Shown piece by piece: positions 38,705-60,000 of a stretch of 64,000 nucleotides of DNA. The position numbers and the translations under genes were made by a program. Source of the stretch: the human T2T-CHM13v2.0 reference genome, Homo sapiens. The notes under the pieces were generated by a model. That model worked only from the letters and a program-made list of their open reading frames with translations. It was not told the origin of the DNA and searched no databases. Position 1 is the stretch's first letter. Every line of letters begins with the position of its first letter. The DNA is taken from the NCBI RefSeq assembly GCF_009914755.1, contig NC_060936.1; one strand, 5' to 3'.

Positions 38705-41667
38705 TTTCTTTTCTTTACTAGTCTCAGAAACTTAAAAAAACAAACAGATTAAAAACAAGTAACAGTACCATTCCTTCTTTTCTACCCCAACCCTTTCACC
38801 ATCGATGTTACCGTCCTTCCTGAATCACGGCCAAGTATGGTAACACCCAATCTCCTAGCCCCTGCCCTGTAGCCTCCCCCCACCATGTGGGCCCCCTGCT
38901 AGGGATCTCTCCATTGTTCTCTTTTGGCACGGTTGCTAAATGGTTTGCTCGGCAACGAAAGCATTTTCTGTACTGTACAGTGGAAGAAGATCCCAAATTT
39001 GGAGTTTAAAAATTGGGGGGAGGTGAGTAGCTCTCCCTTCTAAAATGGTGCCCGTCTCACAGGCTCTTTTGGGTGGCAGTCAGCGCTTTGTGTCTAACCT
39101 GAACCCTGGCTTTGTGGGAGGCTGCCTTGTTTGAGGCTTAAAGGCACAGGGTGCCTCACAAGCTGTACCTTGTGTCAAATGTGGGAATATTCAGCATGGG
39201 TCAGAAAGGGGCTGTGGGCTGGCCCATTGGTTCTGATTGTGTGTGGGTGAGGGAGAGACCAAAGACTGAGCCCTGTCTCATGCTGCCAGCCTGAGGAATT
39301 CACAGAGAGGCAGAGAGAGCTTGGCATTTACTCCAAAGCCCACATCTCCCCAGTTGCCAACCAGCAGAGATGTGGCATGTTGATTTCATTTATTCACTTT
39401 TCTTCTTCCCCTCTGAGAATGCTGTACTTACTTCACTTTTTTTGTTAAAAAAAAAATAAAAGAAAAGTGAAGTCAGGCTGCCTTGTTCACATGCTCAGAG
39501 AGCCCCCTGAAGGGCAGCCTGCACCTGCCAGCTTGCCTGGGTGGCAAGCTGAGAATGATCGGGAGCTGCCAGAGGGATGATGTCTCACAGCACCATTTCT
39601 ATCTGATTGTTCCATCTGTACCCCCAATCTAAGGAACTGAGGCAGCCACAGCCACTGGTCTTTTCATCTCTTGCCTCTCCTCCACCCCGATGCCAGTGCC
39701 AGGCCCAGCTTCCTAGGGCACCAGTTAATCATGGGCCCCACTGCTTGGGACCCTGCAGGATGCAGCCCAGGCTTTTCATATGCCATGCAAGGCTTCACAG
39801 GGTAGCTCACTTTGACCTCTAAGCACCTTCTCTTGCTTCAGTCAGGCCTGTCCCCTCCCTGCCTCCCGAAGGTACCACACTCACGCCTTTCTAGGGTGGC
39901 CACCCACTTCAGAGAGCCCTTCTGCAAGGGACAGCTCGGTGCCCATCCTGCCACGGTCTGTGCTCTGTGCATCAGTCTGCTTTGGGCTTCTCTAGCTGCA
40001 GTCGTGAGTGGGGGTAGAAGGTGGGTCGCTTCAGCTAGATCTGAGCTCCTTGAGGCCCACGCCTTGTCTTACTCAGCTCAGCTTTGTGTCTTCCGTGGGT
40101 CCTTGTTCCGCGTCCTCTTATCTTGAACAAACCAGCACCAATGGATGGTGTGCTCATGGTGAGAGAGGGAGGAGGAGGGACGTGTTCCTAGAGCTGCCTT
40201 CCTGAGGCTGCTCTACCACCTTCCCCCTAAGATAGGACTAGATTACGCTGCGTCTCCCCACACCAGCTTCCTTCTTCCAGCCTGTGTCAGGTAACTCAAG
40301 GCCATCTGGGTGATGACTCGCCTTTCTTATTAGCAGTCCAGGAGCACTGCCCCTTACTCAGGGTCCTTTCATCTAATGACATCACATCAGGACATGATAT
40401 TTCAGGTTCCCCGTTGTGCTTTAAGAGTCTGTTAGCCTGGAAGATTCTTAAGGGCAGAAACTTGTAGAGTCTAAGAGAGTGTGGTGCATGGGCTGTGAAA
40501 TCAGTTTTCTTTTCTGTAAAATGGGGATAATAGGGTGTACCTATCTTGTAGGGTTGTTATGAAGATTGAGTGAGTTACTTTGTGGGAAGCTGGGTCCCTG
40601 GGGTAAATAAAGACTTATACGTTAAAGTTGCTTTTATGATTCTGATGACTAAGCTGAGTGCCCTGATGGGACTTCACTGCAGCTTTGCTCAGGGACTGAC
40701 AGGTGTGACTTCAGTGCCCTTTGACAAGTGTGACCAGAGGAGGCAGAACTGTTGCATTGCAGCCTCCACTTCCTCTCCTACCTGCCTGTTGTTTCCCCTA
40801 CCTGCTGGGGACCATCCCAACCCCAAGGCCCTCAGACTTCTGAGGAAATGGTTAGTGGCACAAATTCATTTATAATCAGAAATGAAGATGGAAAGATCCA
40901 GGGACAATGAGGCAACTATTCTGCCTGGACAAAGTGTGAGCTGGGCAGAAGAGATGAAAAAGGGTTAGGAAGTGGAGGGGGCCACCCTGCGAGGGCCCTC
41001 CGTGACACCAGGCCCCCATCTGAGACTGGTAGGATCAGCCCCTCCAATTTGTTCAGTCTCATGTCCTCAGACTCTCCTCACATCCACCAACTGACTTTAT
41101 GCTTGTAACACCTCTAGGGGGTAGGCTCTTTTAATCCCCATGTTAAAGAAGAGGAAACGGGAGCTCAGAAAAGCAAACTGCCTTGCCCTTGATCACACAG
41201 CTAAAAAGAGCTCAAAGTGAAAAACAGGTCTCTTGACTCTTGGTCCAGCTGGTAAATGATCTATCCCTGCATCAAAGAAGTAATGTTGTGAGAATGAAGC
41301 GGCAGCTGTGGGCCCCTCAGGAGCGGCCAGGTGAGGCTGCAGAGGACAAAAGGCATTAGCCATGCCAGTCAGGCAGCCCTGATGCTACATCAGGAGGCGA
41401 CTAGACATCTGCCCCTTCATCTCCAGACAGCATCGGTGGGACTGCTGTGCCGAACCCAGAGAGAGTAGCTGCTGGTGGCTGTAATACACACTAGGTTTTA
41501 TTCTTGGGCTCCCCATCTGAGTTGGGAAGGGGCTCAGGATGGTAAAACCACTGCAGTTTCCTTTAAAGTAGGGGAGCTGCACTCAGAATGGGAGAGCTCC
41601 ACTCAGAATGGGAGAGCTCTCACCTCTAGGAGGCGGGCCTGCCAGGGAGCCAGTGAGGCTGCAGGTT

Positions 41668-43396
41668 CACCAGCACAAGTCACCACCAGCACAGGTCACC
41701 ACCAGCACAGGTCACACCAGCACAGGTCACCACCAGCACAGGTCACCACCAGCACAGGCCACCACCAGCACAGGTCACCAGCACAGGCCACCACCAGCAC
41801 AGGTCACCATCAGCACAGGCCACCACCAGCACAGGTCACCACCAGCACAGGCCACCACCAGCACAGGCCACCACCAGCACAGGTCACCACCAGCACAGGT
41901 CACACCAGCACAGGTCACCACCAGCACAGGTCACCACCAGCACAGGCCACCACCAGCACAGGTCACCAGCACAGGCCACCACCAGCACAGGTCACCATCA
42001 GCACAGGCCACCACCAGCACAGGTCACCACCAGCACAGGCCACCACCAGCACAGGTCACCAGCACAGGCCACCACCAGCACAGGTCACCACCAGCACAGC
42101 TCACCACCAGCACAGGCCACCACCAGCACAGGCCACCACCAGCACAGGTCACCACCAGCACAGGCCACCACCAGCACAGCTCACCACCAGCACAGGCCAC
42201 CACCAGCACAGGTCACCACCAGCACAGGTCACCATCAGCACAGGTCACCACCAGCACAGCTCACCACCAGCACAGGCCACCACCAGCACAGCTCACCACC
42301 AGCACAGGCCACCACCAGCACCATCAGCACAGGCCACCACCAGCACAGCTCACCGTACCAGCACAGGCCACCACCAGCACAGGCCACCACCAGCACAGGC
42401 CACCACCAGCACAGGTCACACCAGCACAGCTCACCACCAGCACAGGTCACACCAGCACAGGCCACCACCAGCACAGGCCACCACCAGCACAGGTCACCAG
42501 CACAGGCCACCACCAGCACAGGTCACACCAGCACAGGCCACCACCAGCACAGGCCACCACCAGCACAGGTCACCACCAGCACAGGCCACCACCAGCACAG
42601 GTCACACCAGCACAGGTCACCACCAGCACAGGCCACCACCAGCACAGCTCACCACCAGCACAGCTCACCACCAGCACAGGCCACCACCAGCACAGGCCAC
42701 CACCAGCACAGGTCACCACCAGCACAGGCCACCACCAGCACAGGTCACCACCAGCACAGGCCACCACCAGCACCATCAGCACAGGCCACCACCAGCACAG
42801 CTCACCACCAGCACAGGCCACCACCAGCACAGGCCACCACCAGCACAGGTCACACCAGCACAGGTCACACCAGCACAGCTCACCACCAGCACAGGTCACA
42901 CCAGCACAGGCCACCACCAGCACAGGCCACCACCAGCACAGGTCACCAGCACAGGCCACCACCAGCACAGGTCACACCAGCACAGGCCACCACCAGCACA
43001 GGCCACCACCAGCACAGGTCACCACCAGCACAGGCCACCACCAGCACAGGTCACACCAGCACAGGTCACCACCAGCACAGGCCACCACCAGCACAGCTCA
43101 CCACCAGCACAGCTCACCACCAGCACAGGCCACCACCAGCACAGGCCACCACCAGCACAGGTCACCACCAGCACAGGCCACCACCAGCACAGGTCACCAC
43201 CAGCACAGGCCACCACCAGCACCATCAGCACAGGCCACCACCAGCACAGCTCACCACCAGCACAGGCCACCACCAGCACAGGTCACACCAGCACAGGTCA
43301 CCACCAGCACAGGTCACACCAGCACAGGTCACCACCAGCACAGGTCACCACCAGCACAGGCCACCACCAGCACAGGTCACCACCAGCACAGGTCAC
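41668..43396. repeat. Minisatellite/VNTR, 16-bp unit CAGCACAGG(T/C)CACCAC with 9-, 13- and 15-bp variant units, about 110 copies (estimated from length)
   Basis: Directly visible tandem array; the translation repeats every 16 aa (= 3 units). Confidence 0.97.
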
Positions 43397-44129
43397 TACC
43401 ACAGCTCTGTGATGAGGGTCTGGAAGTCCCTCTGGCTGGAATTCATGTCCCCCTCCCACCATGGCCATGCCTGTTGTGGTAGCTCTGTGTCTGCCCATTT
43501 GTGCTGCCTTGGTGATTAATGCCCTCCTGTCTTCCTAACTGGATTGTGGCTCCCTGAAGGGCAGGGAGCCCCACTTCTCATATCTGTTTCTTCGAGGGCC
43601 TGGCCCAGGGTTTAGCACACAGTTCTAGGTGTGACATGAATACCTGCTGGGATCCAGGGAGGACTTTTCACACCCACCGCCCCAGGTAGGACATGAATTC
43701 TTCCATCCAGCCATCCCTATTGAGCACCTCCCAGAGGCCAAGCCCTGTGGTAGGGGATGGGGTTACAGAACCTGGTAAAATGTGGCTCTTGCCCTCGGGT
43801 GCTCTCAGTACTCTCTTCCTGAGCGACTGGAAGGGTAGCAGAAAAGAGAGGTGGGCTCCCCACCCGCAAGTCTTCTAATCCTCATCATTTGCAAAGTGTG
43901 GTGTCCCGGTCGGCAATGCAGACTTCTGCACTAGCCCAAGGGAGGCTGCCCAGTTGCAGTGCTTTACGGTAGGATGTTCCCAAGCCCCGAGCAAAAGCTC
44001 GTTTCTCTGACCTCACGGGAGAGCACCCAGACAGTGGCCAAGGGCACCCCTACATCACTCTTGGCACAGGCGGGGTGAGGAAAGGCAAGGTAGGACCCCG
44101 CTTCGTCCACCTGTCCCTGTCAGCCTGCC

Positions 44130-45640
44130 TGGGGTTCCAGCCGCCGCAGCGTCCCAACCGAGAACGCGGGGCAAGGGTTCGCGCAGCTGCAGGAGCCTGG
44201 CGGAGCGCCTTGTGTGCGCGCCCGTGCGTGCGCGCCGAGGGGGCGGGGAGGGCGGCGCGCACCCCGCAGAGGCCCCCGGCGCTTTCCGATACCTCGCGCC
44301 TCCCTGCGGTCCCTTCTCCCTGTGCGCCCTAGCCAGACCCACGTGTGCAAAGGCATGGAGGGGGGCGTGTGTGTGAGAGTGTGTGTAGGTCTATCCGGGA
44401 GACCGCGTGCCCTGGCCGGACAGGCCCCCAAGTGCATAGGGGGCGGCGGCCAGCTCGACAGCGGCCGCGCTTCTGTCCCCCTCCAGTCCTTCTCCCCAGA
44501 CCTTTCCTCTGGCTTGCTTGGGCCGTGGGTACCTCCAGCCATCCCCCTCCTTTCGCCGCCCCCTTGCTCGGGTAAAAGAGACCAGCGCTTTCCGTTGAAG
44601 GTTCTGGTTCACCCCTCAGCTGCAGAGCCCTTGACATTTAGCGAGTGCTCGCGGCGCACTTGTTTAGGCACACAGCAGAACGCTAATCCCATTAAAGATA
44701 GTGTGTCATTGGGGAGGGGGTGGCTCCCCAGCGGGGCCGGGAAGGCCTCGCGCCCATTGGTCGAATGCAAAGCAGGGGGCGGGGCCGAGGGCCCGGGGAG
44801 GGGGCTCCAGGCGATTTCAGAGTCGCGAGTCGGGGCCGGGATTTCGCAGGGAAAGCCCAGCGGTTGCAGCTGCGGCGGATCCCTCGGCACTGTCCGCCGC
44901 GCGCCGGGGCAGCCCAGGGCCGGCGGCAGCTCCGCAAAGTCGCGGAACGAGAGGAGGCGGAGCGCCGGCCAAGTGGTGGGGCTCAGCGCTGGGGCTGGGC
45001 TGGGCTGGGAGAGGTGTGCCCAGGGAGCCTGGATCCCGGTGCCCTTCTCCCTCGTGTGGAGCGGCCAGTGCGGCCAGAGGCGAGCTGACGGCCTGGAAAG
45101 AGAAATCAAATTGCAGCCTCCCCAAAGACGCTGAGTTACGCGGGCGAGCCGGTTCCCGGGGATCGTTCGCGAGCGCGCAGAGAGCCGCGCCGCGCCGCAG
45201 AGCCCTCCCGGGGCCGCCGGCCAGAAGCGGGGCGCCGTCCGACAGGCAGCAGCCCCTGGGCGCGGGGTTCGGCCGCGAGTGAGCCCCTGTGCAGAGAGGG
45301 GGCGTGCAAGGCTCCGCCGGCCCCCCCGCAGCCCGCGCCCGACTTGGGCGCCCCCTCCGTCCCATTCTGGGAGCGATGCCCCCCGCTCCTCGCACCCCCC
45401 GGGAACGCCGCGAGCATGGAGAAGTCGAGTAGCGAGGATTCTTCGATCCATCGGAGTCCATCTTTGGACAGCAAGGACTCGGACTTTGCCAAGCCGTCCA
45501 CCTCCGGCCGCCCGTTCGGCCGCGGCTTCACGGCCGGCGCCTTCTACGGCACCGCGGGCTCCCGGGGCCAGAGCCGCGCCGAGGCCGGCGTTAAGACCGA
45601 CAAGTGCAATGCACCCAAAGGCAGCAAGTACGTGGTGTTT
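44130..45640 (+). promoter_or_regulatory. Intragenic CpG island / alternative TSPAN9 promoter
   Basis: Very high GC and CpG density. Two reverse CCAAT boxes (ATTGG 44708-44712 and 44756-44760), a GC box GGGGCGGGG at 44776-44784, and direct adjacency to the first coding exon. Confidence 0.88.
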
Positions 45641-45688
45641 TACCTGGACCTGTCCTTTGTGTTTCTCCTAGAATTTAAGAAGTGCAAC
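45416..45688 (+). CDS. TSPAN9: Putative 91-aa in-frame N-terminal extension of TSPAN9 (alternative first exon from the internal CpG-island promoter)
   Basis: AGCATGG (A at -3, G at +4) lies 273 nt upstream of, and in frame with, ATG 45689, with no stop between them. 73/91 codons end in G/C. Confidence 0.6.
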
Positions 45689-45751
45689 ATGGCCAGGGGC
45701 TGCCTCTGCTGCTTGAAGTACATGATGTTCCTCTTCAATTTGATATTCTGG
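45689..45751 (+). CDS. TSPAN9: Tetraspanin-9, first coding exon (codons 1-21, MARGCLCCLKYMMFLFNLIFW); exon spans 45672-45751 including 17 nt of 5'UTR; the rest of the CDS lies outside the window
   Basis: Peptide matches the TSPAN9 N-terminus and the tetraspanin motif CLKYxxFxFNxxFW. Polypyrimidine acceptor ...tcctttgtgtttctcctAG ends at 45671; phase-0 donor TGG|GTAAGT at 45752. Confidence 0.96.
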
Positions 45752-48700
45752 GTAAGTCCTTCCGTTTCTCTCTCCCTTCGCCCTCTTCTCCTCCTCTTGG
45801 CTTACCATAGCGTGAATACCCTCTCCCTCTTCTGTGCTGCATTGCTCTGCTCTCTGCACAGTGGTAAGTGTGCTTTTAAAAAAAAATTGCCCCCGCCCCC
45901 CTTTCATGCACCTTTGTCTTTCCTTTCTCCCTCTCTTTGGTGGCTGAATGGGGGCTCCAGCTTGCCTGTCTTCAGGAGAGACTTGCTCTACTCCTAGGAG
46001 GCTGGCAAAGTTTGGCACCACCTCCTTCCCCTATAAGAAAACCCAGGCTGGAAGTGCCTCCGACTGGGCAGCCTGCAGTAATGGCTGTGGGCTCAGAATT
46101 TTTAACAGCTGTGAGCCTGAGTTGGAGATAGGCACAAGTGAGGATGTATTTCTGAGTTTCTTCTTGTATTCCTCCTGAATGCACAAGAATACAATCTGCA
46201 GCATTTTATGGGAGTGGGTTGGAGGGGGGCGGGGTGTAGAGGCCACATGTTCCCACTCCTTTCGGTGAATCCTAGGAAAAAGAGGAGGAGCCCCTGGCTC
46301 AAGCCGATGGACCTGCTTGCTAGTCCTCAGATATGCTCCCGAGTTGGGGCCTGGGTGGGAAAGGAGGGGTGTGGGGGCTTGCTGCCATCGGGTGGCTGGC
46401 TGCTGCTTTTGAGGGATTGCAGTGGACCGGGCAGGGAGCTGGCTGGCCACGTGCTTCCAGGTTCTGGGAGCCCCAGTGGCCGGAAGGGACAAAGGGAGAC
46501 AAGCAGGGTGCCCCTGTCCTTGGTGAGAGGCACTTTTGTAGAGAAGGTATGAATGGGTAGGGCAGCTGGGAATTGCTCTCTGTCCTCTGTGTGACTCTGG
46601 AGGCTGTGCGCACATATGTGCACGTGCATAAGAAATACTGGTTAGGAACATTTGAAAACTTCTTAAATTCATCTCGAATCGTTCCTTCATCCCAATTGCC
46701 GTCTCTGCCTTTCTTCACCCAAGCCCCGACGTAGCACAGATGTTTGGCTCAGTCCCAGAGTCTGTCCTGCCCTCTGGAGGCTGTCAGCTGCCCACTGCCC
46801 GTGGTCCAGGAGGAGCACTGGGGGCAGGAGAAAGTCATTCAGAGTGAAGTTGGGAAGAAGCAGTTGTGCCGAAGAGGCATTCAGCTTTTGTGTGGAGTGA
46901 TCCACATTAGCCGAAACACTTTTTAGGGTGGGGGTGTGTGTGGAGGGGTGACTTTTCCCATAGAATGACAAGCGCAGGAAGAAGACTGGGCTCTAGTCTT
47001 GGTTCTGCATTAGCTTCTTGTGTGACCTTGGGCAAATCACTTGGTCCCTGAAGGACTGGGCTTCCTTTCCAGTCCAATAGGGGCTGTCGTGATGGTCTCC
47101 CTGCTTGTCCTCACGTCACTAGTTACATGCCATCTGGGGTGGGGGCAGGCATCCTCATCTTCTCTCTTGGGGAGAGAAGCCCCCCTCCCTGCCTGGGGTG
47201 TGGGCTGCTTTTCCAAGGAGACTGGTTTGAAGTGACTTGAGTTGGATTCCCCTAGTTGTCACCATGGGTTGGGCCCTCCAGCCACCCTAGTAGGAAGTTA
47301 CCTGTCATGTGCCTAGAGTTTTATGGAAGCTGGGGCAGATAGTCTCATTCTTTTTCTGGTGGCAAGCACCACTGGAATGTCTCTGGCTGCCTTGTGGGCC
47401 AGTGCCTCCTGGTCCTGTGACCCATCTGCCAGCATCTGTCAGCCAAGTACTGGTGTGTGCTTCCCTGGTGCCTTTGGATTCACACGAATGCTGTCCTTTT
47501 CATTGTTCACAGCTTCCTTCTCCATTCTTTTTTGTAGTCTCAACTTACCTTTTTGTTTTGTCCCACCCTGCCTATATTAAGCCTTATTAGGAAGACAGAC
47601 CCTGGGGCTTGTAACCCCACTCAGCTGCGCTCACTCCTCCCCACCCCCACCCTGCCACCTGCTGGCCGGAGTTGGTATAACTGCCTGCGGTGCCTTTCTT
47701 CTCCAGGATGAGCCCAACGTGGTTTGGTGACCTCCTCACTGGCTAGTACAGTGATCTGTACCCTGCACGTTGTAGGCCCTCATTATATGTTTGTGAATGA
47801 ATGCATGGAGGGCCAGAGCTGTAAATCCACAACATGTTGTCATGTGGTAGTGGTTCCTGAGTTCCACTTGATGGGGAAGAGAAGTTAGATCTCACACTTG
47901 CCTCTGATAAAGGCTCTCCGAGCGCCATAGCTATGGGATGACAAGCAATTCTTCCCATCTTCCCTTAAAACCTTGGCAGAGGTTAATGAGCTAGTTGGTG
48001 GAATATATTTTCGTTACGGTTGATAGCGAGAGAACTTGCTGTCGCTTCCTAATTAGAAGGTACTGATTACATTCTCTTTACCAGGCAAGGAGTTGTTCTC
48101 TCCTGGATTCTGACTTTTCTGATTACTTAATATTTCCAGAATTCCCATGACATGCTGTAAGCAGGGAAAAATTGAATCTCCAAGACCCACTTCTTGTATG
48201 CTAGTAGCAAATGAGATGATTAAATAAGACATAGACCTTAGGTAAGATGGGGAATTTAGCAGAAGACAAGTTCATGCTTGTGTGTAAGAGTGTTTGCCAC
48301 TGTGTTTATCGGGAGGTGGAGGAGCAGGTGCAGGAGGGTGTTGGCCAGGATGTGGGGGCTGTGGGTCACTGTGCTCCACTCAAATGAAGGCTTCCTGCAG
48401 GCTGGTGCTTGGCCTGATACTGGGGAAGGAGCAGAGGAAAGAGCAGAATGGGAAGGGAAAACATCAAAGGCAGGTGGGGTGTTGATGAGTCAGGGTCCCT
48501 GGGAGGCCTCTGTTGCTGTCTTGTGCAGGGGGGCAGGGGGAGCATGCAGGCTGGGTCAAGCCCAGCCCTCTGGGACCGGGTGCAATTGTTAGGAATTTTG
48601 TAGCCTTAACTTGTTGTAGTCTTGTGGCTCAGATCCAAAAAGGAGGCTTTTCTGAAGGATTAGAGTTGAACCTGAGGGCTGCGATCAATAGATAGAACTC

Positions 48701-56077: not shown

Positions 56078-56754
<677 letters not shown>

Positions 56755-57061: not shown

Positions 57062-60000
57062 TAGAGACTTCTGATCTTCCATGCTTTGCCACCCTCCCCC
57101 AGGGTTCAGCTGAGCTCTTGTGCACACGCACTGCAGACCTGATGAGGGAATGGGGCACCCAGAGGTGAGAGGGTGGAGGAGCCCGCTAGCCAGCTAGTCT
57201 TCTAGTGGGTGCAGGTCAGGGGTGAGCACCAGGTATGGTGCTCAGTGCTCTTGCCTAGCAAGGGGGGCCTAGTGTCTGTGTTCATGTCCTGCACCTGCCA
57301 TCTGTCTTCTGATCAGAACAGGGTTTGTAGAGGAGGCAGGCTCTCCAGGGACTATGAGAAGGGTGAAAAGGAGAGGGCTCGAGGATCTGGAGGATGGAAG
57401 ATGTACAACGTGGGAGGATGCCTATCCGGTGAAGGGATTGTGGACAAGCAGAGGGAGTGGGGAGGGTGGAGAAGGAGAAGGCAGGAAAAACATGGTGATA
57501 TTGGAAGCCAGAGAAAGGGGCTAATGCAAAGGGTGTCAAACAGATCTGTGGAGCGCTAGGAATTGCTTGGGTACAGCGGTGTGCTGGTTGCAGAAGACCC
57601 CTTTTAGCAATGGCACTTTGGATCATGCGGGGAAGGGCATTAAAGAACGCCAGGTGGAGGAAGGTCTGGAGGACATGGGACTGTGGCTGGGCGGGCAACC
57701 TGGGGAGTCTGTCTGCAGGGGTCTCTAAGCAAACGGCAGTTGCTGGCGGTGAGGATCCTGTGCCTTCTGTTCTCTGTACAGTGAGGGCGGGTGTGTTCTG
57801 AAGCCTCACTCTGCCCCCTGCCCTCTCAAGGGGGGCTTCCCCCGCTTGTTGGCAAGAGCTCATTGGACCCAAATCAGAGCGACAGCTTGTCAGGCCGATA
57901 AGCCTGGGCTCTGGGCAGGAGCTCTTTATGTCTGAGCCATTTAGGACACTCATCGTGACCAGTCCCTGGGGCTCAGAGGCCTGGTTGGGGAGGAGGTTCA
58001 GGGACCCTCAGGAGAGAGCAAGGGTGGAGGGAGGAACGCTGATGTGGTACTGAGTGCACGAGGTGCTCACTTTGTTCCCATTTATGGCAGCTAAAGAGAG
58101 CTGCAGCGAAGCCCCCCTCCCCCTTCCAGCCCCCCTTCACCTGTCCCTTTCTCAGCCTGCCTGCTGGGAGGAGGGGAGTCTGAAAAGTGCATATTTCACA
58201 AAAGCCACTCCGTAGAGGGCTGTGGGTCTTACTCAGGAGCTGTGGGAGGAATATTGACAAGATTCTCTGCATTGCCGATTAGCTTTCTGTCTTCCCACCT
58301 AAATGGAGACTTCTCACAACTTGGGGCAGGGAGGGGCTGGGCTGGGTGGCCACCCAAACAGCCTGCGGGATCCTGGGGTGCCTGGCCATGCATCCTGCAT
58401 TTCCTCCCCACTCCTACAAATGCAGGTGTGCAGCTCTTCTTGGAAGATGCATGCCAGTTAACTCTCGCTTGTATCTGGGATCAAAGTGGCAGAGTGGAAA
58501 AGAGCAGGGAGTTGATCCCAGAGACCTGGGTTCTAGTCCCCGGCATGCTTGCTAACTAGCCGTGTGATCCTGGGCAAACTGCTTCTGTCTCTGGGCCTCA
58601 GTTTCCACATCTGGAAAATGATAGACTTGGACCAGCTCATCTCTGAGGTCTCTCTGGGCCCTGACATTCTGTGGTTGTATATGTTTCTTTTGTTCCCTTT
58701 GTCTTTTTTAAGGAGCTGATGATTATTGAGATATTTTATCTTCCTTATCCTCATAGTAGCGTCGGTAGAGTGATGGACCACGGATGAGTTTCTTCTGTCT
58801 CATAGGTGGTGACACTGAAAGGGGACTGCCTCACCTGGACTACGTGTGTGCTCAGTGTGCTGGAACTCACTGCCTGGACAAAGCTGCCCTAGATTTTGCC
58901 ATTCCTGGAGCTCACAGGCCTGGAGTGAGCGGCTGCCTGCCGCGGGGCTGGGTCGGGACAGGAGCGCTGGGTTCCAGGGTGGACGAACTCCTGTTGGATT
59001 TGCCTCTTCGGACCTCCAGTTCCTTGCTTAGTGGTGGGGGGAGAATCTTCCCTGTTAGCCCATTTCCCACTTCAGGGTAGCAAGAAATGGAAGTCGTTTC
59101 TGGGCCTGGGCAGGAGATGGGGCCACAGCCACAGCAGTCAGTTGATTTGAACACGCCCTCCCCCCTGCAGGGGAGGGCCTTCACGCCCTCTAAGCAGGTA
59201 ATGAGGGGGCGGGCTGCCGTATTAAGCACCCTGGCTACGCTGGGGAGAAGCTCTGCACCTTGTTTGACACACAGAACTGTCGCGGCTCCTTCCTATTGTT
59301 AGAAGCCTTAATTACTATTGTTCCAATTCCTCCCTCCAGCGATCGTCATTAGGAAGAGCGTTCTTGTTTCTTCCTCCTTCCCCCCATCCCCCTGAACACG
59401 TCTTCAGGGCTGTTCCCTGGCGCTGCCTGCCTCTCACCCGGCTCTACCCTGTTCACTGTGCCCTTCTACCCAGGGCAGCCCCTGACAGCCCACCTCCCTC
59501 ATCCCCTGGCCCTGGCCTGCGCTCCCACCTGCTACCTCTTTAGGAAACAAACACATACCCTTCCCACCCCCATCCCCAAGTCTCCCCATTAAAACTCATG
59601 GCTCAAAGCCAGGGATGCTTTACCTTGTGTGTGGATTCAAGAACCTGTCCTACCCGCTTCTCTGGTGGTTGTGAGAATCCAAACCAAGAGAAGGGTGGTG
59701 CCTTAAACTGGAAAGTACTGCACACATTTAGGGGGTGTCCGTGCACCAGCGCCGCAGGCCATAGCTGGCTGGGGGAAGGCTTGGGCTACCCTGCTGCTCT
59801 GCCATTGACTCCCTGGGAGGATCTTTGACTTCAGCTTCTCCTCGGTAAGGTGGGAATCAAATCTTAATCAAACTTGCCTGGCCAACCTGGGAGCCTTGTC
59901 AGTGGGCTGCAATGGGATGGTGATCCTGAAAGTACTCTGAGGCCTAGGAAGGGTTCTGCTGATTGGAATCAGGATCGCCAGCTTATTTTTCTTTTCATGA

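What the first reader, a model, noticed from the sequence alone, without database searches (positions are those of the whole stretch)
45416..45751. Hidden long TSPAN9 isoform: 91-aa N-terminal extension encoded in 'intronic' CpG-island sequence
Seen: ATG 45416 in strong Kozak context (AGCATGG) is the first in-frame ATG after an in-frame TGA (45086-45088). It reads MEKSSSEDSSIHRSPSLDSKDSDFAKPSTSGRPFGRGFTAGAFYGTAGSRGQSRAEAGVKTDKCNAPKGSKYVVFYLDLSFVFLLEFKKCN without a stop into the canonical MARGCLCC. The composition switches from low-complexity GC to coding-like at this ATG; 73/91 codons end in G/C, including 34 in a row (codons 25-58). Known: tetraspanins normally have very short cytoplasmic N-termini, and canonical TSPAN9 is ~239 aa. 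Inference: transcripts starting in this island would make a ~330-aa TSPAN9 with a large N-terminal domain, while transcripts from the distal promoter splice in at 45672 and make the short form, so promoter choice would set the N-terminus. It may already exist as a predicted isoform; I cannot check that.
Basis: partly seen in the sequence, partly recalled or inferred. Interest (0 to 1): 0.82.

Follow-up and report, generated by a model that had tools for sequence, protein, structure and literature searches.

The report
Conserved long TSPAN9 N-terminal extension
The 273 bases just upstream of the usual TSPAN9 start codon are a real, anciently conserved coding extension that would add 91 residues to the protein's inner end; automatic annotation has glimpsed it, but I found no study of it.

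Summary
ATG 45416 (a at -3, g at +4) opens 91 codons that run without a stop into the canonical ATG 45689. An open frame means little in this CpG island, which has 130-306-aa ORFs in all six frames. Two results do matter. The period-3 G+C signal (GC1/2/3 = 0.50/0.51/0.80) is the strongest in the 64-kb window. The peptide is conserved in TSPAN9 models from chimaera and sharks to mammals at 62-99% identity, as well as the tetraspanin body. TSPAN4 carries a homologous extension, intact in the human genome with the same embedded splice acceptor. It is therefore an old coding module of jawed vertebrates with no Pfam or PDB match.

It is not truly hidden. RefSeq XM_054370839.1 already starts its CDS at 45416, but it encodes only a truncated 136-aa product. 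About 330-aa "isoform X1" models exist in many other species. A full-length 330-aa human transcript, its translation and its function remain unshown. I found no paper describing it.

The parts
44700..45407 (+). CpG-island sequence upstream of the extended exon. It is the presumed internal promoter and 5' leader; the true start sites are unknown.
   Evidence: G+C is 0.73-0.76 and CpG observed/expected is 0.77-0.98. An inverted CCAAT lies at 44756 and a GC box at 44777; there is no TATA. Only one ATG (45376) lies between 44766 and 45415. No repeat of 100 bp or more is masked here. The promoter role is inferred, not tested.
45376..45432 (+). Short out-of-frame upstream ORF (18 codons) that overlaps ATG 45416. 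It matters only for transcripts that start upstream of 45376.
   Evidence: ATG 45376 (gcgATGc) is in another frame, with its stop ending at 45432. A regulatory effect is inferred.
45408..45751 (+). Extended first-exon form of the canonical first coding exon. The same exon serves as an internal exon from 45672.
   Evidence: XM_054370839.1 and XR_008488508.1 (Gnomon) both begin at 45408 and use the donor after 45751. Eight other TSPAN9 mRNA models enter at 45672.
45416..45514 (+). Extension codons 1-33: start codon and a serine-rich acidic block that contains the invariant HRSPS motif.
   Evidence: Identity to the bat reference is 0.97-1.00 in mammals, lizards and birds, about 0.82 in frogs and teleosts, 0.48-0.76 in cartilaginous fish, and 0.45-0.52 in TSPAN4. 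M1 and three serines are invariant in 49 of 49 aligned sequences. AF2 pLDDT is below 50, with no secondary structure.
45515..45565 (+). Extension codons 34-50: Gly/Phe/Tyr-rich block (FGRGF..AFYG).
   Evidence: Identity is 0.71-0.94 in TSPAN9 sequences and 0.18-0.24 in TSPAN4. It lies inside the run of 34 G/C-ending codons.
45566..45613 (+). Extension codons 51-66: variable linker.
   Evidence: Identity outside mammals is 0.12-0.62, and all length variation of the extension sits here or next to it.
45614..45688 (+). Extension codons 67-91: near-invariant hydrophobic juxtamembrane block (PKGSKYVVFYLDLSFVFLLEFKKCN). The same bases form the polypyrimidine tract and acceptor of the canonical exon.
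   Evidence: Identity is 0.84-1.00 in 44 TSPAN9 sequences and 0.76-0.84 in 4 TSPAN4 sequences. Human TSPAN9 versus TSPAN4: pN 0.138, pS 0.475. AF2 gives a helix at residues 79-89 (pLDDT 50-63) running on into TM1. The Kyte-Doolittle 15-residue maximum is 1.99 at residue 73.
45670..45671 (+). AG of the canonical 3' splice site, formed by the third base of Leu codon CTA and the first base of Glu codon GAA.
   Evidence: The same CTC CTA GAA is found at the homologous spot of human TSPAN4, even though 95% of the codons there end in G/C.
45689..45751 (+). Canonical start codon and the first 21 codons of TSPAN9 (start of TM1), followed by the GT donor at 45752.
   Evidence: The RefSeq CDS of NM_006675.5 and NM_001168320.2 begins at 45689.

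Best explanation
Bases 45416-45688 are genuine protein-coding sequence. They are the 5' part of an alternative first exon, which is simply the canonical first coding exon extended upstream into an internal CpG-island promoter.

Transcripts that start in the island keep this sequence. Their first AUG in good context (45416) is in frame with the canonical AUG. Joined to the normal downstream exons, they would encode a 330-aa TSPAN9 with 91 extra cytoplasmic residues ahead of TM1. Transcripts from the distal promoters splice into an acceptor that lies inside the extension (AG 45670-71), lose it, and make the 239-aa form.

The extension consists of a disordered serine-rich acidic block with an invariant HRSPS motif, a Gly/aromatic block, a variable linker, and a near-invariant hydrophobic segment that probably prolongs or flanks TM1 at the inner membrane face.

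The module arose before TSPAN9 and TSPAN4 separated and has been kept in both throughout jawed vertebrates.

Shown: the open frame, the codon periodicity, the amino-acid conservation, the paralogue, and the annotated models. Inferred: the human full-length transcript, its translation, its cytoplasmic location, and any role as a phospho-regulated trafficking or partner-binding tail or as a membrane-shaping segment.
For: - ORF and start context.
- Codon periodicity: GC3 is 0.80 against 0.50 and 0.51, the top phase statistic in the 64-kb window, with 0 of 20000 shuffles reaching it.
- Homologue search: 164 of 164 word-sharing candidates scored E <= 0.01 against the 91 aa alone. The 120 listed rows cover mammals (94-99% over the full extension; two partial or divergent rodent models are lower), lizards (about 85%), birds (79-82%), frogs (80-84%), bichir, sturgeon and paddlefish (78-82%), teleosts (48-75%), and chimaera, sharks and rays (62-79%).
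- Conservation relative to the body: the extension is as conserved as the tetraspanin body, for example chimaera 0.78 against 0.71 and a shark 0.73 against 0.65.
- Start codon: all 49 of 49 aligned full-length models begin at the homologous Met, and length changes cluster in the linker.
- Paralogue: a human genome search with the 112 aa finds one other locus, inside TSPAN4. It has 53% identity, no stop, its own ATG, the same embedded acceptor and the same donor.
- Boundaries of similarity: paralogue DNA similarity starts at the ATG and stops at the donor.
- Codon positions: identity by position is 0.72/0.71/0.50, with pN 0.305 and pS 0.527.
- TSPAN4 long models occur from sharks to primates and rodents.
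- RefSeq already places a CDS start at 45416 on a model beginning at 45408.
Against: - Human RefSeq on T2T has no model joining this first exon to the full set of downstream coding exons. XM_054370839.1 ends in an alternative exon and gives 136 aa, and XR_008488508.1 is non-coding.
- The only mouse model I saw is also truncated (201 aa, reading into the intron).
- No row labelled human, and no row marked as encoded by the window, appeared in three protein searches. However, 127, 50 and 115 candidates were left out unseen, and only cluster representatives are named.
- The annotated 5' end leaves an 8-nt leader, which from recalled knowledge is short for efficient initiation. A start further upstream would include the overlapping out-of-frame uATG 45376.
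- The orthologues are predicted proteins, and some pipelines use homology. Genomes with a broken frame would not be listed. 4 of the 120 listed rows are flagged LOW QUALITY.
- AF2 gives no fold for residues 1-78.
- I found no paper or peptide evidence. Supplementary tables, where such peptides or Ribo-seq calls would sit, were closed.
Confidence: 0.75

Rival explanations
1. The extension is a real conserved coding module in vertebrates. In human, and perhaps mouse, the internal promoter yields only truncated or non-coding transcripts, so no full-length 330-aa protein is made in meaningful amounts.
For: The only human models from 45408 are a 136-aa truncated CDS and a non-coding XR. The mouse model seen is a 201-aa read-through. 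No human-labelled long protein was seen.
Against: Macaque differs from human at 1 of 91 residues and mouse at 3 of 91. That is far less than neutral drift would give (established knowledge of mammalian divergence), so selection on the peptide continues in these lineages. Bonobo and macaque models join the extension to tetraspanin-body exons: bonobo to the full body, macaque to part of it. XR_008488508.1 shows that transcripts from this start do reach exon 122895.
Confidence: 0.15
2. The extension matters mainly as a translational control leader. Initiation at 45416 and at the small out-of-frame ORFs (45376-45432, 45609-45671) tunes how much short TSPAN9 is made from island transcripts, and the peptide itself is dispensable.
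For: Two short out-of-frame ORFs flank or overlap the start region. The canonical AUG also has a strong context, aacATGg.
Against: A leader selected only for being translated would not keep 62-99% amino-acid identity from sharks to human. Nor would it keep the same motifs in a paralogue with third-position divergence.
Confidence: 0.05
3. It is a chance open frame in a G+C-rich island. Its conservation reflects promoter, CpG-island or splice-acceptor constraints on the DNA, not a protein.
For: Long ORFs occur in all six frames here. The last 30 or so bases are the polypyrimidine tract and acceptor of the canonical exon.
Against: The period-3 composition is found in this frame only. The start Met is conserved in 49 of 49 aligned models. 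The N-terminal block, far from the acceptor, is conserved. Paralogue similarity begins exactly at the ATG, and third positions diverge most. Four competing ORFs have no Pfam match. The extension has none either, so that result is a weak control.
Confidence: 0.03

Closest known systems
TSPAN4 long isoform (predicted 'tetraspanin-4 isoform X1' or 'tetraspanin-4a' models; human locus chr11:901407-901745 in T2T)
   Same: It has a homologous N-terminal extension of about 90 aa with the HRSPS motif and the KYVVFYLDLSF..FLLE block. Its ATG is at the homologous position. The same CTA-GAA acceptor lies inside the coding sequence, and the donor is the same.
   Different: Identity to TSPAN9 is only 42-53%, and the middle block is different (0.18-0.24 identity). 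The human TSPAN4 N-block has drifted from the form seen in birds and sharks. I could not see whether human RefSeq annotates it, because only chr12 transcripts were supplied.
[quoted passage not shown]
   Same: It is a tetraspanin with a long cytoplasmic N-terminal region. This comes from passages of PMC6773723.
   Different: I made no sequence comparison with TSPAN10. The TSPAN9 extension found only TSPAN9 and TSPAN4 in the human genome, so it is not detectably related. In TSPAN10 the long N-terminus belongs to the curated main isoform, whereas here it depends on the promoter used.
N-terminal proteoforms made by alternative promoters, through exons used both as first and as internal exons ('hybrid exons')
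   Same: One exon serves as a first exon from 45408 or as an internal exon from 45672, and the upstream part adds in-frame coding sequence. A review of N-terminal proteoform diversity (PMC13082882) was seen only in a search listing and abstract. The term 'hybrid exon' is recalled, not read here.
   Different: The extension here is older and better conserved than is usual for alternative N-termini, and it is duplicated in a paralogue.
PRPH2 C-terminal amphipathic helix that partitions into the cytosolic leaflet
   Same: It is a possible functional analogy for the hydrophobic juxtamembrane block. The analogy comes from the introduction passage of PMC6773723.
   Different: That helix is at the other end of the protein, shows no sequence relation, and the TSPAN9 segment is not clearly amphipathic as a helix (alpha moment 0.49, beta-type moment 1.03). 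This is an analogy only.

Membership tests
Tetraspanin family (Pfam PF00335) | Match to the tetraspanin profile covering four transmembrane helices and the large extracellular loop | tested here: met
   The orthologous 330-aa model P0005 matches PF00335 at residues 100-320 with E = 6.2e-61. In the window only the first 21 codons of the body (45689-45751) are present; the rest is annotated outside it.
Tetraspanin family (Pfam PF00335) | The extension itself belongs to the tetraspanin domain or to any named domain | tested here: not met
   There is no Pfam family at E <= 1 for the 91 aa or for the human TSPAN4 counterpart. No PDB chain matches at E <= 1, and the Atlas search gave no usable hit.
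Promoter-dependent N-terminally extended isoform | An in-frame upstream AUG with no intervening stop, in a good initiation context | tested here: met
Promoter-dependent N-terminally extended isoform | Transcripts that start upstream of that AUG and are contiguous with the exon | tested here: inconclusive
   Two Gnomon models start at 45408. I could not see the reads or cDNAs behind them, and the leader is only 8 nt.
Promoter-dependent N-terminally extended isoform | Such transcripts are joined to the full downstream coding exons in human | tested here: not met
   None of the 10 human TSPAN9 models on T2T does this. Models in bonobo, bat, tree shrew, tenrec and many non-mammals do.
Promoter-dependent N-terminally extended isoform | Amino-acid-level selection on the extension | tested here: met
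Promoter-dependent N-terminally extended isoform | Evidence of translation (ribosome footprints, peptides) | not testable with these tools
   No such data could be reached. The peptide-string literature search returned 0 papers, and supplements were closed.
TSPAN9/TSPAN4 long-form N-terminal module (unnamed; defined here) | A Met-started region of about 90 aa directly ahead of the canonical Met, with the HRSPS motif and the KYVVFYLDLSF..FLLE block | tested here: met
Chance ORF of a CpG island | No codon-position signal and no conservation of the translated sequence | tested here: not met
   Both signals are present.

The most novel reading that the evidence does not exclude
The 91 residues are an unnamed cytoplasmic regulatory module shared by all jawed vertebrates and carried by both TSPAN9 and TSPAN4. 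A conserved serine cluster around HRSPS would act as a phospho-switch. The invariant hydrophobic block next to the palmitoylatable cysteines would sit in or on the inner leaflet, changing how these tetraspanins traffic, pick partners or shape membrane. The long form would be the ancestral principal product of the gene pair. Work done only with the short constructs would then have missed part of their biology, and the textbook statement that tetraspanins other than TSPAN10 lack an N-terminal domain would need revising.
Probability: 0.4. Interest if true: 0.75.

Novelty: new member of a known kind. Interest (0 to 1): 0.58.

Why it matters
Tetraspanins are described as having very short cytoplasmic N-termini. 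A 2019 survey of curated isoforms lists only one TSPAN9 protein and names Tspan10 as the only member with a large N-terminus (PMC6773723, passages).

The extension is about 90 residues long and is kept at 62-99% identity from cartilaginous fish to human in TSPAN9. It is present in TSPAN4 too, so these two genes have a second, promoter-selected protein form with its own conserved motifs.

If the long form is made in human cells, three things follow:
- Expression constructs, antibodies and knock-outs designed on the short form may miss it or treat the two forms unequally.
- Variants in 45416-45688, now read as intronic or 5'-UTR on the reference transcript, would be coding in the long form.
- The module offers a handle for studying how these tetraspanins are regulated from the cytoplasmic side.

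Tried and rejected
- Open-frame length as evidence was rejected. Six-frame ORFs of 130-306 aa are common in this island.
- Named domains or solved structures for the extension: none in Pfam, none in the PDB sequence search, and no usable Atlas hit.
- AF2 on a 49-sequence alignment gave no fold for residues 1-78 and only a low-confidence helix at 79-89. I therefore ran no fold search.
- An RNA-family explanation was checked and dropped. Rfam gave no match in 43500-47000.
- Competing ORFs on both strands: 4 were tested and none has a Pfam match. No repeat is masked here.
- Origin before jawed vertebrates: the shark TSPAN4a extension found only jawed-vertebrate TSPAN4 and TSPAN9 (107 of 108 candidates at E <= 0.01). 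The search depends on shared words and on length, so absence in lampreys or invertebrates is not shown.
- A third human paralogue: only TSPAN9 and TSPAN4 matched. The third match, on chr4, had E = 9.45 and is noise.
- A human protein record with the extension: none was visible, but cluster members and left-out candidates could not be seen.
- Literature: six searches and passages of four papers gave nothing on a long TSPAN9 or TSPAN4 N-terminus. The two papers were irrelevant.
- Specific kinase or adaptor motifs were considered from memory only and are not claimed.
- The 49 sequences aligned were chosen from the 120 rows. I took models of 321-345 aa that carry PF00335 and dropped fragments, longer models and LOW QUALITY rows. 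Statements such as "49 of 49" apply to that selection only.
Full report
**What is in the sequence**

The window lies inside TSPAN9. Position 45416 carries an ATG in the context agcATGg. It is the first in-frame ATG after TGA 45086-88. It opens 91 codons that run without a stop into the canonical ATG at 45689 and on to the splice donor after 45751. The canonical exon starts at 45672, after an AG at 45670-71. That AG is built from the third base of a CTA leucine codon and the first base of a GAA glutamate codon of the extension.

**Is it more than chance?**

The open frame is not. The island carries ORFs of 306, 280, 214, 193, 131 and 130 aa spread over both strands.

The codon-position signal is. 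G+C at positions 1, 2 and 3 is 0.495, 0.505 and 0.802. The other two frames have longest G/C-ending runs of 6 and 7 codons. I took as a statistic the best phase minus the mean of the other two. No shuffle out of 20000 reached the observed 0.302. Among all 63727 windows of 273 nt in the 64-kb window, the only ones that reach it start at 45415-45589, on this same stretch.

**What the annotation already says**

The finding is not hidden from RefSeq. Two Gnomon models begin at 45408. XM_054370839.1 has its CDS from 45416 to 45751 and then uses an alternative terminal exon, giving 112 + 24 = 136 aa. XR_008488508.1 is non-coding and goes on through 58806-59844 to exon 122895. The other eight TSPAN9 mRNA models enter at 45672 from upstream exons. 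Five of them use ATG 45689 and three use a later ATG in the next coding exon. No human model on T2T joins the extended first exon to the whole downstream coding region. Arithmetic on the annotated CDS gives 239 aa for the short form and 330 aa for the long form.

**Conservation**

I searched named public proteins with the 91 aa alone. To bring proteins of about 330 aa within the tool's length rule, the query was a longer stop-free window stretch and only the 91 aa were scored. All 164 of 164 word-sharing candidates scored E <= 0.01; 120 were listed, and 127 further candidates were left out unseen.

About 90 of the listed rows are TSPAN9-type. Many are 326-345-aa models named 'tetraspanin-9 isoform X1'. 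Identity to the human extension by group:

| Group | Identity |
|---|---|
| Macaque | 99% |
| Mouse | 97% |
| Other mammals | 94-98% over the full extension; two partial or divergent rodent models are lower |
| Lizards | about 85% |
| Birds | 79-82% |
| Frogs | 80-84% |
| Bichir, sturgeon, paddlefish | 78-82% |
| Teleosts | 48-75% |
| Chimaera, sharks, rays | 62-79% |

Some rows have only a UniRef source and others are 'hypothetical protein' entries from genome projects, so more than one annotation route produced them. Four of the 120 rows are flagged LOW QUALITY.

I aligned 49 full-length models (45 TSPAN9, 4 TSPAN4), selected by length and Pfam content:
- All 49 start at the homologous Met.
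- Length differences cluster in a linker.
- The extension is as conserved as the tetraspanin body, for example chimaera 0.78 against 0.71 and a shark 0.73 against 0.65.
- The last 25 residues are 0.84-1.00 identical in all 44 TSPAN9 comparisons.

**The paralogue**

About 29 rows are TSPAN4 models with a related extension (42-48% identity). A search with the shark TSPAN4a extension returned 107 hits among 108 candidates. All are TSPAN4 or TSPAN9 of jawed vertebrates, including gibbon (330 aa), vole (333 aa) and zebrafish (321 aa) models.

In the human genome the 112-aa query finds exactly one other convincing place, chr11:901407-901745 inside TSPAN4, with 53% identity and no stop. That locus has its own ATG, a 92-codon extension, the same CTC CTA GAA with the AG acceptor, and the same donor.

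A DNA alignment of the two human loci shows similarity that begins at the ATG and ends at the donor. Over 82 aligned extension codons, identity by codon position is 0.72, 0.71 and 0.50, with pN 0.305 and pS 0.527. In the C-terminal block, pN is 0.138 and pS is 0.475. The TSPAN4 extension has GC1/2/3 of 0.62/0.55/0.95, which makes its retained A-ending CTA codon at the acceptor conspicuous.

These results are direct evidence, from DNA I could read, that the peptide and the embedded splice site are both under constraint. They also show that the module predates the split of the two genes.

**What the extension looks like as protein**

It has no Pfam family, no PDB relative and no Atlas hit. AF2 on the 49-sequence alignment (bat orthologue, 97% identical in the extension) gave mean pLDDT 64. 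Residues 1-78 have pLDDT below 50 and no secondary structure. A helix at 79-89 (pLDDT about 50-63) leads into a long helix at 91-128 that contains TM1.

The first 70 residues are rich in Ser (14), Gly (9) and Ala (7). The hydrophobic block peaks at Kyte-Doolittle 1.99 over 15 residues, but it contains Asp and Glu and is short for a membrane span.

My reading is a disordered cytoplasmic tail with short conserved motifs, plus a hydrophobic juxtamembrane segment next to the cysteines that precede TM1. Roles in phospho-regulated sorting, partner binding or membrane shaping are inference. The kinase and adaptor motifs I considered come from memory and are not claimed.

**Mechanism and its weak points**

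The best-supported account is promoter choice. Island-initiated transcripts retain 45416-45671 and start translation at 45416. Distal-promoter transcripts splice in at 45672 and start at 45689.

The weak points are all on the human expression side:
- There is no full-length human model, and the mouse model I saw is truncated.
- The annotated leader is only 8 nt.
- An out-of-frame uATG at 45376 has an 18-codon ORF that overlaps the start, which matters if transcription begins further upstream.
- An out-of-frame ATG lies at 45609.
- I could reach no read, footprint or peptide data.
- The orthologues are predictions, and genomes with broken frames would not be listed.

Against a merely vestigial human copy, macaque differs at 1 and mouse at 3 of 91 residues. 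The bonobo model joins the extension to the full tetraspanin body, and the macaque model joins it to part of the body.

**Comparison with what is known, and novelty**

The kind of event is ordinary: an N-terminal proteoform made by an alternative promoter through an exon used as both first and internal exon. The particular module appears undescribed.

[quoted passage not shown] A C. elegans study that aligns TSPAN4 and TSPAN9 used the short forms (PMC4433240, passages). Six literature searches found nothing on a long form. Supplements, GENCODE and UniProt records could not be consulted.

I therefore file it as a new member of a known kind, already present in automatic annotation, and of moderate to good interest for tetraspanin biology.

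Noticed in passing
L002:1501-1840 (G000 chr11:901407-901745, inside TSPAN4): Human TSPAN4 has an intact ATG-started 92-codon extension homologous to the TSPAN9 one, with the same embedded acceptor and donor. Its N-terminal block has drifted from the form kept in birds, turtles and sharks. Whether human RefSeq annotates it could not be seen.
   Followed up: partly
window 45668-45673: The canonical 3' splice site AG is made by an A-ending CTA leucine codon followed by GAA. The identical CTC CTA GAA is kept in human TSPAN4, where 95% of extension codons end in G/C. The site therefore serves as both coding sequence and splice signal.
   Followed up: partly
window 45376-45432 and 45609-45671: There are two short out-of-frame ORFs. 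One overlaps ATG 45416 and the other ends just before the canonical exon start. They could modulate which start codon is used on island-derived transcripts.
   Followed up: no
window 45605-45607 (codon 64 of the extension): The reference reads TGC (Cys), whereas the macaque, bonobo, mouse and most other mammalian models have Tyr. An anole model and one teleost model also have Cys. The residue lies in the variable linker.
   Followed up: no
window 44701-45415, compared with P0182: A 570-aa bonobo 'tetraspanin-9 isoform X1' model extends a further 240 aa upstream through the G+C-rich open frames of the island. It starts at a position that is GTG in human and matches two different human frames. 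It looks like an over-extended prediction rather than real coding sequence.
   Followed up: partly
window 45408-45751, then chr12:3278194-3278268 (L004:45-119): RefSeq XM_054370839.1 joins the extended exon to an alternative terminal exon. This gives a 136-aa product made of the extension, the start of TM1 and a 24-aa unrelated tail. The mouse X5 model (201 aa) instead reads into the intron.
   Followed up: partly
window 44756-44782: An inverted CCAAT box is followed about 20 bp later by a GC box, at the 5' edge of the island and about 640 bp upstream of ATG 45416. Only one ATG lies in between. This layout is compatible with a TATA-less promoter and a long leader.
   Followed up: no
window 41650-42713 and 59182-59721: RefSeq functional elements list hESC enhancer marks (H3K27ac/H3K4me1, and one with NANOG) near the island and in the downstream intron.
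   Followed up: no
window 56091-56437 (- strand): This is the annotated processed pseudogene RPS27P3, lying in the intron downstream. I did not examine it.
   Followed up: no
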